Below are positions 13,671 through 32,240 of a DNA stretch of 64,000 nt, in pieces. The translations under genes and the position numbers were made by a program. Source of the DNA: the human T2T-CHM13v2.0 reference genome, Homo sapiens; NCBI GenBank assembly GCA_009914755.4, contig CP068257.2:43616001-43680000 (forward strand). Reading direction: 5' to 3'. Below the pieces are notes generated by a model. The model was not told the DNA's origin and ran no database searches. It saw only the letters and a list, made by a program, of their open reading frames with translations. How positions within the stretch are numbered: position 1 is the stretch's first letter; every line of letters starts with the position of its first letter.

Positions 13671-14934
13671 CTGCAAAGGATCACAGAGGTTCCAGAGTCA
13701 GGGAGAACTGAGAGGAGCAGCTGAGTGAAATGAGTTCCACAGTTACATGGAACCAACACGGCCGTCCCCCGAGCACCCACCAGCCGGCCGCCCCCTTGCT
13801 GGCACCCCTCGCTCAGGTGCCCTCGACATCGGCGCCCTGAGGGGCTCTGCCTGGTGCTGCAGCCCCATCCACACCCCACAGTCAGCAGCCGCCACGCTCC
13901 TGTCCCACCGCATGTCCCCCTGGGAGCCCTCCTCTCCGTCACCAAATCCCAGGCCAGGCACGCCAGTGCAGGTCGAATACCTCCTGGGGGTCACACGGTG
14001 AACAATGAGAGATTCCTACTAACCACACACTGTCTAGCCAGGGCATGGCGGGTCCTTATCCTGAGGCACAGTAGACATCACGGAGGTCAAGGCCCCCTCC
14101 ACACACACGCTGTATGGGCTGGTGGGGACACCCTTCTCCAGGGGTTTCTCCAGACCTCAGGTCAGCGGCCTGCCCGTTCCTCCGGCTCCTGCGCAGCTGG
14201 TCTCTGGCTCTCCAGCGGCACTTCATGAACTTCGTGAACAAGCAAACCCCAGAGATGTTTCCAGAGCAAATGTAACATGCACAGCGCTGTACACAGAGCC
14301 ACAGGGCCAGCAGGCCACACAGGCCTGTATGCTGCTGCGGGGTGCAGCACTGGTGGGGAGACCCTCACCACCCCACACACAGGGGCCTGCCAGAGCAGGC
14401 CGCGCCGGCCCGGAGGCAGGGCAGCTTCAGTGAGCTGGGCCGAGCGCTTCGCGCAGCTGAGGGCAGGAGGCTGAGAGCTCAGTGCGAAGCCTCCCCACAG
14501 CAGGCTTCCTGGGCTGCGGAGACAGCACCGCCAAGGTCGCAGTCAAAATCCCAAGGCCACACCTGAGAAGCAGGGGTGAGCTCGTGACTGGGCTCCTGCA
14601 CACCTCCGCCCTGACCTAAGAAGTCAGCGCTGCATCCTGTCTGCTTAACAGGGAAAGGGACCCACACCCAGCAGACAGCATCACCCGGAGCCTCTGTGGG
14701 TCTTATACACCATGCCCAGAACACCACAGGAAATAGCAGATGTGTGAAGAGGCACCGGCTCAGGGCGCTCAGCATTCCTCGGGCAGGAGAGAGACAGACT
14801 AACCCACAGAGATGCACGCGTGTGCACAGTGCTAACCACGGGGAAGATCATTCCCTCTACTTTCATTTTCCATTTAACTCAAACCGTTTCACCCTAACCC
14901 CAGCCTTCATCTCCTATGCAGATGGGCAGGCAGG

Positions 14935-15235
14935 TCTTTGGAGGAACAGAGGCCCAGGCGTACCTCCCACAGCAACCCCAGAGGAATGACTGCACGCAGG
15001 GCCCACGCTCCCGGCCTCTGGGACGCTCACGGCAGCCCCACGAGAATGATCACACGAGGGCCCACGCTCCCGGCCTCGGGGACGCTCACGGCAGCCCCAC
15101 AAGAACGATCACACGAGGGCCCATGCTCCCAGCCTTGGGGACGCTCATGGCAGCCCCACGAGAATGATCACACGAGGGCCCACGCTCCCGGCCTCGGGGA
15201 CGCTCACGGATGCTCAACAACACAGCAACAAGGAC
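14935..15235. repeat. VNTR with a 60-bp unit, about 5 copies, in POFUT2 intron 8
   Basis: The unit cccacgctcccggcctcggggacgctcacggcagccccacgagaatgatcacacgagggc is repeated with few substitutions. Confidence 0.9.
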
Positions 15236-15591: not shown

Positions 15592-15715
15592 CTGGCGTGT
15601 GCGCAGATCCACTGGTCAATAATCGCAACGCCTCCGTCCTTGTAGAGCTCCAGCTCCTCCCACGTGGGTTCAAACCTCACCATCTCGGGTAACAGCTTTT
15701 TTAGCTCTTCATATT
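15592..15715 (-). CDS. POFUT2: POFUT2 exon 8
   Basis: The acceptor is tttgcag|aatatgaag and the donor is cacgccag|gtgcctg. It translates as (E)[40 protein letters not shown](R), 124 nt. Confidence 0.88.
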
Positions 15716-15950
15716 CTGCAAAGTAGAAGGAGAGACCCTTTGAACCGGGATCCTCCAGTAAGGACAGATACGTGACTCTTTAGCAGACAGACATGCGTAC
15801 TTGGCTTCTGGTTAATTCGTTAGGAACTGGCTCCAAAGGTGCAGACACACAACTCAGCTTTACCCTCCCAGGAATTACAGTTGAAGATCATGCAGATCTT
15901 CATGGATCTGGGTAGTTCCAGGTCTACCCAGAACAGAACCAGGGATCAAG

Positions 15951-15967
15951 AAGAAAGGAAAGAAACG
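15951..15967. repeat. SVA target-site duplication, left copy aagaaaggaaagaaacg
   Basis: An identical 17-mer is found at 17755-17771, immediately after the SVA poly(A). Confidence 0.6.
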
Positions 15968-17754
15968 TGCTCCCTCTCCCTCTCCTTCTCCCTCTCCCTC
16001 TCCCCACGGTCTCCCTCTCTTTCCACGGTCTCCCTCTCATGCGGAGCCAAAGCTGGACTGTGCTGCTGCCATCTCGGCTCACTGCAACCTCCCTGCCTGG
16101 TTCTCCTGCCTCAGCCTGCCGAGTGCCTGCGATTGCAGGCACGCGCCACCACGCCTGACTGGTTTTGGTGGAGACGGGGTTTCGCTGTGTTGGCCGGGCC
16201 GGTCTCCAGCCCCTAACCGCGAGTGATCCGCCAGCCTCGGCCTCCCGAGGTGCTGGGATTGCAGACGGAGTCTCGTTCACTCAGTGCTCGATGGTGCCCA
16301 GGCTGGAGTGCAGTGGCGTGATCTCGGCTCGCTACAACCTACACCTCCCAGCCGCCTGCCTTGGCCTCCCAAAGTGCCAAGATTGCAGCCTCTGCCCGGC
16401 CACCACCCCGTCTGGGAAGTGAGGAGTGTCTCTGCCTGGCCGCCCATCGTCTGGGATGTGAGGAGCCCCTCTGCCTGGCTGCCCAGTCTGGAAAGTGAGG
16501 AGCATCTCCGCCCGGCCGCCATCCCATCTAGGAAGTGAGGAGCACCTCTTTCCGGCCGCCATCACATCTAGGAAGTGAGGAGCGTCTCTGCCCAGCCGCC
16601 CATCGTCTGAGATGTGGGGAGCGCCTCTGCCCCGCCGCCCCATCTGGGATGTGAGGAGCGCCTCTGCCTGGCCACGACCCCGTCTGGGAGGTGAGGAGCG
16701 TCTCTGCCCGGCCGCCCCGTCTGAGAAGTGAGGAGCCTCTCCGCCCGGCAGCCACCCCATCTGGGAAGTGAGGAGCATCTCCGCCCGGCAGCCACCCCGT
16801 CCGGGAGGGAGGTGGGGGGGTCAGCCCCCCGCCCGGCCAGCTGCCCCGTCCGGGAGGGAGGTGGGGGGGTCAGCCCCCCGCCTGGCCAGCCGCCCCGTCC
16901 GGGAGGTGAGGGGCGCCTCTGCCTGGCCGCCCCTACTGGGAAGTGAAGAGCCCCTCTGCCCGGCCAGCCGCCCCGTCTGGGAGGGAGGTGGGGGGGTCAG
17001 CCCCCCGCCCGGCCAGCCGCCCCGTCCGGGAGGTGAGGGGCGCCTCTGCCCGGCCGCCCCTACTGGGAAGTGAAGAGCCCCTCTGCCCGGCCAGCCGCCC
17101 CGTCTGGGAGGGAGGTGGGGGGGTCAGCCCCCCGCCCGGCCAGCCGCCCCGTCCGGGAGGTGAGGGGCGCCTCTGCCTGGCCGCCCCTACTGGGAAGTGA
17201 AGAGCCCCTCTGCCCGGCCACCACCCCGTCTGGGAGGGGTACCCAACAGCTCATTGAGAACAGGCCAGGATGACAATGGCGGCTTTGTGGAATAGAAAGG
17301 CGGGAAAGGTGGGGAAAAGATTGAGAAATCGGATGGTTGCCGTGTCTGTGTAGAAAGAAGTAGACATGGGAGACTTTTCATTTTGTTCTGCACTAAGAAA
17401 AATTCTTCTGCCTTGGGATCCTGTTGATCTGTGACCTTACCCCCAACCCTGTGCTCTCTGAAACATGTGCTGTGTCCACTCAGGGTTAAATGGATTAAGG
17501 GCGGTACAAGATGTGCTTTGTTAAACAGACGCTTGAAGGCAGCATGCTCGTTAAGAGTCATCACCAATCCCTAATCTCAAGTACCCAGGGACACAAACAC
17601 TGCGGAAGGCCGCAGGGTCCTCTGCCTAGGAAAACCAGAGACCTTTGTTCACTTGTTTATCTGCTGACCTTCCCTCCACTATTGTTCCATGACCCTGCCA
17701 AAATCCCCGTCTGTGAGAAACACCCAAGAATTATCAATAAAAAAAATAAATTAA
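15968..17754 (+). mobile_element. SVA retrotransposon, composite of CCCTCT hexamers, an Alu-like region, a VNTR and SINE-R, in POFUT2 intron 7 and antisense to the gene
   Basis: It has (CCCTCT)n at 15970-16060, antisense Alu-like sequence at 16060-16400 and GC-rich VNTR units of 35-50 bp at 16400-17240. The SINE-R (HERV-K env/LTR-derived) part runs 17245-17735 and ends in AATAAA plus an A-rich tail. 17-bp direct repeats flank it. Confidence 0.9.
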
Positions 17755-17771
17755 AAGAAAGGAAAGAAACG
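17755..17771. repeat. SVA target-site duplication, right copy
   Basis: It is identical to 15951-15967. It ends 20 bp from the exon 7 donor site at 17791. Confidence 0.6.
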
Positions 17772-17790
17772 AAAGCATTGAAGCTCCATA

Positions 17791-17971
17791 CCCTTTCTGA
17801 CGGCATCTGTGGCCACAAACACCTTGTCCAGCCGGTGGGTCTTCATGAGGCTGCGGATCTTCCTCACGGCCCCTTCCAGACTGGGTACATCCTGTCTGTG
17901 ACCCCAGATGAAATCTTTTCTTCTCAGGTGGACTCCCAGGTAGGGGCCCCCTAGCGCGGAGCCCAGCTTGA
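17791..17971 (-). CDS. POFUT2: POFUT2 exon 7
   Basis: The acceptor is tttgctag|gtcaag and the donor is agaaagg|gtatgg. It translates as [60 protein letters not shown] plus 1 nt, 181 nt in total. Confidence 0.88.
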
Positions 17972-18229
17972 CCTAGCAAAGAACCACAAGGAAATGCAGA
18001 AGCTGACAGGCGGGCTCGGGGCTCATCCTGGGCACCAGGTGGGACTCGAGACGCAGAGGGATGACCCTTTCCATGTGGCCTCCTCCACGGGGTGGCTCCA
18101 GGGCTGTCTAAGGGATTCAGGTGGAATCTCGGGGGCGACCAGATGTCTTTCTAAGAAGACAGTGAAGCAGTATTAATTACCAGAAATCATTTTATCTGAG
18201 GTAAAGAAAAATATTTAAAAAGAGAACAG

Positions 18230-27656: not shown

Positions 27657-28594
27657 TTACGCCCTCATGGTTCACACAAAGACTCTTCTACAGAAACCTG
27701 GAAACAACCAAAAGCCACATTTTCTTCCATCTGTACACAGACAACTGCAAAAGAACGAGGTGATGTCCATGTGTCGTAATACCCAGGTGAATGGCTGGGT
27801 GGGAAGAAAGGGCAGACTGAAAACCGCATGGAGAGGGCACGTGTGGTGATTCCACGTGTGTTTCAAAAGATGGCTGCATGCACAGGCGGCCATGTGAGGC
27901 GATTTCTGGAGAGATGGGTGTAGCTGGATTCAGTGGGTGCCTCCGGCCCTGCTTCTAATGCCGTTTTAAGGGCTTTTTATGAAATGCAATACTGCACTTC
28001 AAGACGCACATTCCACACGGGCGCGGGTAGAGGACATTCCGCACGGGCACAGGTAGACAAACTGCTCCAAAATGAACACGGTGCAGCCCCCACCCGGGTG
28101 GAGGAACAAGGAGGAAGAAAGCGCTTCACACACTTGCTCTGCCCCGTCCTCAGGGGCCTCCCCGGCATCCTCCCATCTCTCCCTCCGATGCACGGGACTG
28201 TCTTTGACCTTCATGCACATGGAACATGACTACATTTATCTTTTTCTTTTTTTTTACTGGGCATTATATCTTGATTTCTCTTTGTTGAACACGGCAGCAG
28301 GTTGCCCATCTTCAGCTGTGGATCTACCACACTCTATCCAGTGCGTGGCTGAGGGGTGCACGTGTTTTCCTGGTCCGGGGAGGCTATGAACGTTCCTGGG
28401 CAGGGGTCTGCGGGTGCATGTCCCGCATTCAGGGTGCACTGGGTTCCCAGGGTTTTACCAGATTCTTGCTCCAGGAGCAGCCTTTGAGCCCCTGCAGGCC
28501 TGTCCTCCCGACAGCGGTTGGTTTCCCGAGCATGACAGCAATGGGGGCACCTGCTCGCATTAACAGCAGCTGTCCTTACTCCTGAATCGCATGG

Positions 28595-28800
28595 ATCCTG
28601 TGTTGGACTCACCTCACCCCAGGCTGCCCGTCCCTCACTCGCTGAGTTTCGTCTCAATTGCACGGATCCCGTCTTGGACTCGCCTCACCCCAGGCTGCCT
28701 GTCCCTCACTCGCTGGGTTTCGTCTCAATTGCACGGATCCCGTCTTGGACTCGCCTCACCCCAGGCTGCCCGTCCCTCACTCGCTGAGTTTCGTCTCCTG
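28595..28800. repeat. Tandem repeat with a unit of about 60 bp, about 3.4 copies, in POFUT2 intron 4
   Basis: The unit gcacggatcccgtcttggactcgcctcaccccaggctgcccgtccctcactcgctgagtttcgtctcaatt is repeated. Confidence 0.9.
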
Positions 28801-32044: not shown

Positions 32045-32240
32045 GCTCAAAGGCAGCAGGAATAAAGCGGGAGGGAGCACCGCGCAGGTGAAGTTCTGGG
32101 GCAGGAACAAAGCGGGAGGGAGCACCGCGCAGGTGAAATTCTGGGGCAGGAACAAAGCGGGAGGGAGCATCGCGCAGGTGAAGTTCTGGGGCAGGAACAA
32201 AGCGGGAGGGAGCATCGCGAAGGTGAAGTTCTGGTATCCT
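32045..32240. repeat. Tandem repeat with a 48-bp unit, 4 copies, in POFUT2 intron 2
   Basis: The unit caggaacaaagcgggagggagcaccgcgcaggtgaagttctggggcag is repeated. Confidence 0.9.

What the first reader, a model, noticed from the sequence alone, without database searches (positions are those of the whole stretch)
15951..17771. SVA with an intact 17-bp TSD fills most of POFUT2 intron 7 and ends 20 bp from the exon 7 splice donor
Without the SVA, intron 7 would be only about 270 bp. The 1.8 kb antisense SVA, with its hexamer, Alu-like, VNTR and SINE-R parts and a poly(A) at 17735-17754, lies 20-36 nt into the intron. That is close to donor-proximal splicing signals. SVAs are young, often polymorphic, GC-rich, methylated and able to form G-quadruplexes. 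Known SVA insertions in genes perturb splicing and expression. The perfect 17-bp TSD argues for a recent event.
Basis: seen in the sequence. Interest (0 to 1): 0.55.

Follow-up and report, generated by a model that had tools for sequence, protein, structure and literature searches.

The report
Known human-specific SVA in POFUT2 intron
A full-length 1.8 kb SVA_F retrotransposon, absent from both Pan assemblies and macaque, lies backwards in intron 7 of human POFUT2 close to the exon 7 splice donor; it is real, but it is already annotated in the reference genome and has been studied in two papers, so it is ordinary.

Summary
A perfect 17-bp direct repeat (AAGAAAGGAAAGAAACG, 15951-15967 and 17755-17771) brackets a + strand element. 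The element has a (CCCTCT)n region, antisense-Alu-like region, 850-bp GC-rich VNTR, SINE-R, AATAAA and a short A-tail. The flanking exons are POFUT2 exons 7 and 8 on the - strand. Intron 7 is 2076 bp, of which SVA plus one TSD is 1804 bp. The right TSD ends 20 nt from the donor and the A-tail ends 37 nt from it.

Two Pan assemblies (271-bp intron) and macaque (250 bp) carry the exact empty site with one TSD copy, so the insertion arose on the human lineage.

GRCh38 also carries it. The window is a different human haplotype: its VNTR lacks one 49-bp unit and the element differs at 12 substitutions.

Published RepeatMasker tables call it SVA_F. It has been cloned and represses a reporter. SVA-to-exon junction reads were seen in 2 of 10 motor cortices. 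It is not among 65 common presence/absence-polymorphic reference SVAs.

All annotated protein isoforms keep the normal exon 7-8 junction. Verdict: already known, largely tolerated, low interest.

The parts
15951..15967 (+). 5' target-site duplication, AAGAAAGGAAAGAAACG
   Evidence: It is identical to 17755-17771 and these are the only two copies in the window. A single copy is present at the empty site in the Pan assemblies and macaque.
15968..16045 (+). SVA 5' end: two extra bases (TG), then a CCCTCT-type hexamer repeat and linker
   Evidence: Read directly from the sequence. TRF finds a period-6 CTCCCT array at 15970-16019.
16046..16388 (+). Alu-like region (antisense Alu fragments)
   Evidence: blastn gives about 70-73% identity over 170-240 bp, and up to 93% over about 55 bp, to ordinary Alus in the window. 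The Alu that matches in the same orientation is preceded by poly-T. The Alus that match in reverse start with GGCCGGGCG and end A-rich.
16389..17238 (+). VNTR: GC-rich tandem array (74% GC) with four G-quadruplex motifs on the + strand
   Evidence: TRF periods of 40, 49 and 127 bp; composition; G4 motifs. It differs from GRCh38 by one 49-bp unit and 10 substitutions.
17239..17735 (+). SINE-R region
   Evidence: Read directly from the sequence. It has no other copy in the window. It lies within the published RepeatMasker SVA_F annotation. Its HERV-K10 origin was not tested here.
17736..17754 (+). Polyadenylation signal AATAAA (17736-17741) and short interrupted A-tail
   Evidence: Read directly from the sequence.
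17755..17771 (+). 3' target-site duplication
17792..17972 (-). POFUT2 exon 7 (181 nt), donor AGG|GTATGG
   Evidence: Spliced reconstruction of the 429-aa protein. It is 100% identical to GRCh38 and to one Pan assembly (L002) and 99.4% to the other (L003).
15716..17791 (-). POFUT2 intron 7 (2076 bp). The SVA plus one TSD makes up 1804 bp of it.
15592..15715 (-). POFUT2 exon 8 (124 nt)

Best explanation
This is a full-length SVA_F retrotransposon. It was inserted by L1-mediated target-primed reverse transcription into the originally ~270-bp intron 7 of POFUT2, after the human-Pan split, in antisense orientation to the gene. Nicking was at an A/T-rich L1-endonuclease-like site; on the gene-sense strand the sequence at the nick reads TTTCTT/C. 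The insertion produced a 17-bp target-site duplication.

The element is present in two independent human haplotypes (GRCh38 and this window). Those two haplotypes differ by one 49-bp VNTR unit. It is absent from a published list of common presence/absence-polymorphic reference SVAs, so it is most likely fixed or near fixed.

It is normally removed with the intron. It places acceptor-like and donor-like sequences on the pre-mRNA strand, and a GC-rich VNTR of the kind reported to be bound by ZNF91. I infer that its effect is a modest cis-repressive or modulatory influence, with rare exonisation, rather than a disruption of exon 7-8 splicing.

Shown here: identity, anatomy, position, human specificity and the VNTR difference. 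Taken from papers: subfamily, reporter repression and junction reads. Inferred: fixation and the size of any effect on POFUT2.
For: - Anatomy and TSD.
- Gene and exon map.
- Precise empty site with one TSD copy in two Pan assemblies (intron 271 bp) and Macaca fascicularis (250 bp).
- The SVA is present in GRCh38 with identical TSDs, at chr21:45267949 and 45269802.
- Difference from GRCh38 of one 49-bp VNTR unit plus 12 substitutions.
- RepeatMasker SVA_F. The hg19 entry is chr21:46687927-46689722, 2.3% divergence (PMC10063665, supplementary file 6). The hg38 entry is chr21:45267987-45269807 (PMC10380656, Table S2).
- The POFUT2 SVA was cloned and represses a luciferase reporter. POFUT2 on a human chromosome 21 in mouse cortex is upregulated by the SVA-lncRNA AK057321 (PMC10063665).
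- SVA-to-exon junction reads in 2 of 10 motor cortices (PMC10380656).
- There is no chr21 entry among the 65 common polymorphic reference SVAs.
- All seven retrieved human isoforms keep ...DAVRK|EYEELKK.
- A rough PWM finds acceptor-like sites on the gene-sense strand scoring as high as the gene's real acceptors. It also finds two donor-like sites scoring above the exon 7 donor.
Against: - Fixation is not shown. Only two human haplotypes were examined, and the polymorphism list covers common variants in one mostly European cohort.
- I did not verify the subfamily call against consensus sequences.
- The reporter assay places the SVA outside its intronic context.
- The junction reads were seen in a minority of samples and were not validated by RT-PCR for this gene.
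- The splice-site PWM uses frequencies recalled from memory, so it only ranks sites.
- Gorilla and orangutan loci were not retrieved.
Confidence: 0.9

Rival explanations
1. The SVA is a presence/absence polymorphism in living humans, and the filled allele measurably changes POFUT2 splicing or expression. In other words, it acts as an sQTL or eQTL.
For: SVA_F is the youngest classical subfamily and many of its copies are polymorphic (PMC12593883). The site is empty in the Pan assemblies. Junction reads were seen in only 2 of 10 brains, which could reflect genotype.
Against: Both human haplotypes available carry the SVA. It is not among the 65 common polymorphic reference SVAs. It does not appear in the PD-cohort reference-SVA supplement that was searched. 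No paper in the library pairs POFUT2 with sQTL.
Confidence: 0.07
2. VNTR length, rather than presence or absence, is the functional variable. Alleles differing by 49-bp units would differ in the amount of repressor-bound repeat or in G-quadruplex load, and so tune POFUT2 expression or cryptic splicing.
For: The window and GRCh38 differ by one 49-bp unit that contains a G4-type motif. VNTR deletion abolished repression for the CHAF1B SVA (PMC10063665). Widespread structural variation within SVAs is described in the abstract of PMC8997352.
Against: There are no expression or splicing data by allele for this locus. A one-unit change in an array of about 20 units is small.
Confidence: 0.15
3. The element is an older insertion shared with other apes that was precisely deleted in Pan. 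Alternatively, it is an assembly artefact or a composite that is not an SVA.
For: None found.
Against: Macaque also has the empty site, with a single TSD copy and no scar. The element is present in two independently assembled human haplotypes. All canonical SVA parts are present in the canonical order.
Confidence: 0.01

Closest known systems
The same element as annotated in the human reference: RepeatMasker SVA_F at hg38 chr21:45267987-45269807 (hg19 chr21:46687927-46689722)
   Same: It has the same position between POFUT2 exons 7 and 8, the same strand and the same TSDs. The sequence is identical apart from one 49-bp VNTR unit and 12 substitutions.
   Different: The window is another human haplotype. 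It is about 99.3-99.7% identical to GRCh38 across the gene.
X-linked dystonia-parkinsonism SVA_F in TAF1 intron 32 (from my own knowledge of the literature)
   Same: It is a human-specific SVA_F lying antisense in an intron of a protein-coding gene, with a hexamer and VNTR rich in GC and G4 motifs.
   Different: The TAF1 insertion is a rare founder allele with a demonstrated effect: intron retention and reduced expression that scales with hexamer length. The POFUT2 copy is in the reference genome, appears not to be a common polymorphism, and has no known phenotype.
CASP8 intronic SVA and other exonised reference SVAs (PMC10380656)
   Same: They are intronic reference SVAs that contribute splice junctions to host transcripts. 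The POFUT2 SVA is in the same table of 92 novel exonisation events.
   Different: The CASP8 SVA is polymorphic and its genotype is associated with transcript changes. Most exonised SVAs in that study (73%) are in the sense orientation, whereas the POFUT2 SVA is antisense and was seen in only 2 of 10 samples.
CHAF1B, HTT, JAM2, AGPAT3 and CDK5RAP2 intronic SVAs, reported as repressive (via ZNF91 for CHAF1B and HTT) and countered by the SVA-lncRNA AK057321 (PMC10063665)
   Same: The POFUT2 SVA was tested in the same reporter series and was repressive. POFUT2 responded to AK057321.
   Different: VNTR-deletion and ZNF91 experiments were done on the CHAF1B SVA and ZNF91 on the HTT SVA, not on the POFUT2 SVA.

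Membership tests
SVA (SINE-VNTR-Alu) retrotransposon | 5' (CCCTCT)n hexamer repeat | tested here: met
   TRF finds a period-6 CTCCCT array at 15970-19 (15970-16019), 8.5 copies. The sequence is shown.
SVA (SINE-VNTR-Alu) retrotransposon | Alu-like region made of antisense Alu fragments | tested here: met
   It matches ordinary Alus in the window at about 70-73% identity over 170-240 bp, and up to 93% over about 55 bp. Orientation relative to the poly-T and poly-A ends of those Alus shows it is antisense.
SVA (SINE-VNTR-Alu) retrotransposon | GC-rich VNTR of roughly 35-50-bp units | tested here: met
   TRF finds an array at 16390-17235, period 40, 20.7 copies, with 49-bp and 127-bp higher-order periods. 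GC is 74%.
SVA (SINE-VNTR-Alu) retrotransposon | SINE-R derived from the HERV-K10 env 3' end and LTR | not tested
   No HERV-K reference sequence was available in the tools. The region lies inside the published RepeatMasker SVA_F annotation, and it matches my recollection of the SVA consensus, which is only a lead.
SVA (SINE-VNTR-Alu) retrotransposon | AATAAA signal, poly(A) tail and flanking TSD at an L1-endonuclease-like A/T-rich target | tested here: met
   AATAAA is at 17736-17741 and the A-tail runs to 17754. The 17-bp perfect TSD begins AAGAAA. The pre-integration site is seen in the Pan assemblies and macaque.
SVA_F subfamily (human-specific) | Diagnostic substitutions and indels of the SVA_F consensus | not testable with these tools
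   No Dfam or Repbase consensus was available. Two published RepeatMasker tables, on hg19 and hg38, call it SVA_F, with 2.3% divergence in the hg19 table.
SVA_F subfamily (human-specific) | Absent from the orthologous site in non-human primates | tested here: met
   Intron 7 is 271 bp in two Pan assemblies and 250 bp in macaque, each with a single TSD copy. Gorilla and orangutan were not retrieved.
SVA_F1 (MAST2-SVA) | Hexamer and most of the Alu-like region replaced by MAST2 exon 1 | tested here: not met
   The 5' end is a hexamer repeat followed by a complete Alu-like region. It is therefore classical F, not F1.
POFUT2 (GDP-fucose protein O-fucosyltransferase 2) gene | The flanking exons encode POFUT2, and the intron lies between coding exons 7 and 8 | tested here: met
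   Nine GT-AG exons give a 429-aa protein. It matches PDB 4AP5, human POFUT2, at E = 5.7e-290. The locus matches GRCh38 chr21:45264482-45288871.

The most novel reading that the evidence does not exclude
Because the insertion lies only 20-37 nt downstream of a middling exon 7 donor, it displaced the ancestral donor-proximal intronic sequence by 1.8 kb. The SVA, and allelic differences in its VNTR length, may therefore have given humans a lineage-specific and individually variable change in POFUT2 exon 7-8 splicing efficiency or expression. POFUT2 O-fucosylates thrombospondin repeats of ADAMTS-family and related proteins (from my own knowledge), so such a change could matter.
Probability: 0.1. 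Interest if true: 0.4.

Novelty: already known. Interest (0 to 1): 0.15.

Why it matters
The finding matters little beyond confirming the annotation. The element is in the reference RepeatMasker track as SVA_F. It has been cloned and assayed as a transcriptional repressor, and it is listed among SVAs with exonisation junction reads.

This analysis adds two small things. The first is a direct demonstration of the exact empty site in two Pan assemblies and macaque. The second is that two human haplotypes differ by one 49-bp VNTR unit. If VNTR length or the insertion itself were shown to tune POFUT2 output, it would be one more example of human-specific SVA cis-regulation, not a new principle.

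Tried and rejected
- Three isoforms that are not the longest product of their gene (bonobo X2, orangutan X2, human X4) were not on record. The longest isoforms worked.
- Exact-match scans for the empty-site junction and the filled 5' junction in metagenome contigs, and for the empty site in prokaryotic genome contigs, gave 0 hits. These scans are uninformative about human allele frequency.
- A full-text search for the hg19 and hg38 coordinates returned only unrelated papers.
- POFUT2 plus sQTL returned no paper.
- The supplements of PMC8149882 and PMC12593883 contain no POFUT2 or chr21 entry. PMC8997352 has no supplements held as text.
- An Rfam scan of the whole window gave no family at gathering score.
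- I did not attempt an independent subfamily assignment from memory of consensus sequences, because it would not be a test.
- The shared-ape and artefact readings were rejected.

Full report
**1. The observation**

The 17-mer AAGAAAGGAAAGAAACG occurs at 15951-15967 and again at 17755-17771. These are its only two occurrences on either strand of the 64-kb window, and identity breaks immediately outside both copies.

Between the two copies lie 1787 bp, 63% GC, with the canonical SVA order on the + strand:
- Two extra bases (TG), then a CCCTCT-type hexamer array. TRF finds period 6 at 15970-16019.
- An Alu-like region, about 16046-16388.
- A GC-rich tandem array at 16389-17238. TRF gives period 40 with 20.7 copies, plus 49-bp and 127-bp higher-order periods. 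GC is 74%.
- A unique region of about 500 bp, 48% GC, at 17239-17735: the SINE-R.
- AATAAA at 17736-17741 and a short interrupted A-tail ending at 17754.

The Alu-like part matches ordinary Alus elsewhere in the window at about 70-73% identity over 170-240 bp, with short stretches up to 93%. The flanks of those Alus give the orientation. The one that matches in the same orientation is preceded by poly-T. Those that match in reverse begin GGCCGGGCG and end A-rich. The SVA's Alu-like part is therefore antisense Alu, as the family definition requires. The VNTR and SINE-R have no other copy in the window.

**2. The gene context**

A tblastn of the POFUT2 protein, recalled from memory and used only as a probe, located nine coding blocks on the - strand. 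Choosing GT-AG boundaries reconstructs a 429-aa product from nine exons. That product matches PDB 4AP5, 'GDP-fucose protein O-fucosyltransferase 2', at E = 5.7e-290 over residues 22-429.

Exon 7 is 17972-17792, with donor AGG|GTATGG. Exon 8 is 15715-15592, with acceptor ...CTACTTTGCAG|A. Intron 7 is therefore 15716-17791, 2076 bp. The SVA plus one TSD accounts for 1804 bp (87%) and the remainder is 272 bp.

The right TSD copy ends 20 nt from the exon and the A-tail ends 37 nt from it. The SVA's 5' end is 252 nt from the exon 8 acceptor, well clear of the branch-point region. The SVA lies on the + strand and the gene on the - strand, so the element is antisense to the gene.

**3. Comparison with other genomes**

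A protein search and a cluster listing gave the longest POFUT2 isoforms for human, Pan and macaque. Their encoding loci were then fetched:
- L001: GRCh38 chr21:45264482-45288871.
- L002 and L003: assemblies GCA_028858775.3 and GCA_028858825.2. The source names the protein Pan paniscus. From memory of the accession numbers, I take these to be the chimpanzee and bonobo T2T assemblies.
- L004: Macaca fascicularis.

Intron 7 is 2125 bp in GRCh38, 271 bp in both Pan assemblies and 250 bp in macaque. Removing the SVA and one TSD from the human sequence gives an alignment that is collinear with the Pan and macaque introns. Each of those carries a single copy of the TSD sequence and no scar.

This is the classic filled-site versus empty-site signature of a retrotransposition on the human lineage after the split from Pan. 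A precise deletion in Pan is excluded by the macaque empty site. Gorilla and orangutan loci could not be fetched, because only the longest isoform of each gene is indexed.

**4. Human variation**

The window is not GRCh38. Across the POFUT2 locus it is about 99.3-99.7% identical. GRCh38 has the same 17-bp TSDs, at chr21:45267949 and 45269802.

A global alignment of the two SVA alleles shows one 49-bp VNTR unit present in GRCh38 and absent in the window, after 16833. There are also 12 substitutions: 10 in the VNTR and 2 in the SINE-R, at 17584-17585. Two independent human haplotypes therefore carry the insertion and differ in VNTR length.

For presence/absence polymorphism I could use only the literature:
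- The element is not among the 65 common polymorphic reference SVAs genotyped in the ALS consortium cohort. That table has no chr21 row (PMC10380656, Table S3).
- It does not appear in the PD-cohort supplement.
- It does not appear in a 2025 catalogue, which in any case covers non-reference insertions.
- Scans of metagenome and prokaryote contig collections for either junction found nothing and are uninformative.

Fixation or near-fixation is thus an inference, not a demonstration.

**5. What is already published on this element**

- PMC10063665 (Commun Biol 2023), supplementary file 6, lists the hg19 RepeatMasker entry: chr21, + strand, SVA_F, 46687927-46689722, 1795 bp, 2.3% divergence, inside POFUT2.
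- The same paper cloned the POFUT2 SVA from a BAC and reports that it represses a luciferase reporter. It also reports that human POFUT2, on a human chromosome 21 carried in mouse cortex, is upregulated by the SVA-derived lncRNA AK057321.
- PMC10380656 (Int J Mol Sci 2023), Table S2, lists chr21:45267987-45269807, SVA_F, +, POFUT2, among 92 'novel exonisation events'. [quoted passage not shown] This one was seen in 2 of 10 motor cortices.

These hg38 coordinates fall inside the TSD-bounded element I located in GRCh38. The element, its subfamily and a first functional characterisation are therefore already in the literature.

**6. Likely mechanism and consequence**

*Insertion.* The TSD begins AAGAAA, and the complementary gene-sense strand reads TTTCTT/C at the nick position. 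This is a degenerate L1-endonuclease target (consensus TTTT/AA, from established knowledge). Together with the poly(A) end and the 17-bp TSD, it indicates L1-mediated target-primed reverse transcription.

*Consequence for splicing.* All seven human isoforms retrieved keep the junction ...DAVRK|EYEELKK, and none contains SVA-derived coding sequence. The solved-structure construct also carries that junction. The intron with its SVA is therefore normally removed.

I scored splice sites with a rough position-weight matrix built from recalled human splice-site frequencies. It is useful only for ranking within this gene.
- The exon 7 donor scores 6.2, mid-range among the gene's eight donors (4.3-11.4).
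- On the gene-sense strand the antisense SVA carries many acceptor-like sites that score as high as the real acceptors. Examples are TTCTTTCTACACAG|A at 17345 (10.8) and the repeated VNTR motif TCCTCACTTCCCAG|A (9-10).
- Two donor-like sites score above the exon 7 donor: 17440 GGG|GTAAGG (8.1) and 17668 AAG|GTCAGC (6.9).

This makes the published low-level junction reads plausible. It does not show which sites are used.

*G-quadruplex motifs.* These are enriched about four-fold in the element: 5 in 1.8 kb, against 0.7 per kb in the window. Four lie on the SVA-sense strand in the VNTR and one on the gene-sense strand in the hexamer region.

*Best-supported reading.* The element is a tolerated, human-specific intronic SVA_F with a modest repressive or modulatory cis effect and occasional exonisation.

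**7. Verdict**

The observation and the interpretation are both correct. But the element is a known reference-genome SVA_F that has already been catalogued and assayed, and no evidence here points to an unusual mechanism. Novelty: already known. Interest: low.

The most novel reading not excluded is that the insertion, or its VNTR length, tunes exon 7-8 splicing or POFUT2 expression in a human-specific and allele-specific way. Testing it needs population structural-variant genotypes, junction counts and a minigene or CRISPR deletion.

Noticed in passing
window 13681-13710 (POFUT2 intron 8, about 11-43 nt upstream of the exon 9 acceptor at 13671/13670): The window haplotype has one copy of a 33-bp segment (CAGTTCTCCCTGACTCTGGAACCTCTGTGAC..). 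GRCh38 and both Pan assemblies have two tandem copies. This is a derived 33-bp deletion in the branch-point region of the last intron. The acceptor and polypyrimidine tract themselves are unchanged.
   Followed up: partly
window 15000-15209 (POFUT2 intron 8): A GC-rich 59-bp tandem repeat with 3.6 copies and 91% matches. It is a minisatellite about 380 bp downstream, in the gene sense, of exon 8.
   Followed up: no
window 12517-36826 versus L001 (GRCh38 chr21:45264482-45288871): The window is a human haplotype other than GRCh38. Across POFUT2 there are about 0.25-0.5% mismatches plus about 20 gap openings. That is several times what I recall as the genome-average human heterozygosity, and it fits my recollection that this distal part of chr21q is unusually variable.
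   Followed up: partly
window 28582-28797 and 32056-32234 (POFUT2 introns 4 and 2): The offset self-matches in the window-versus-GRCh38 blast (93-96% identity at shifts of 71 and 45 bp) indicate two further short tandem arrays inside POFUT2 introns.
   Followed up: no
proteins P0031-P0039, P0045, P0053, P0073, P0077 (bird POFUT2 models): Many bird gene models fuse POFUT2 (PF10250) with PF02130 in products of 560-661 aa (most 610-661), most of them flagged LOW QUALITY by NCBI. From memory, PF02130 is the YbeY/UPF0054 family, so these may be read-through or merged models with a neighbouring YBEY-like gene rather than real fusions.
   Followed up: no
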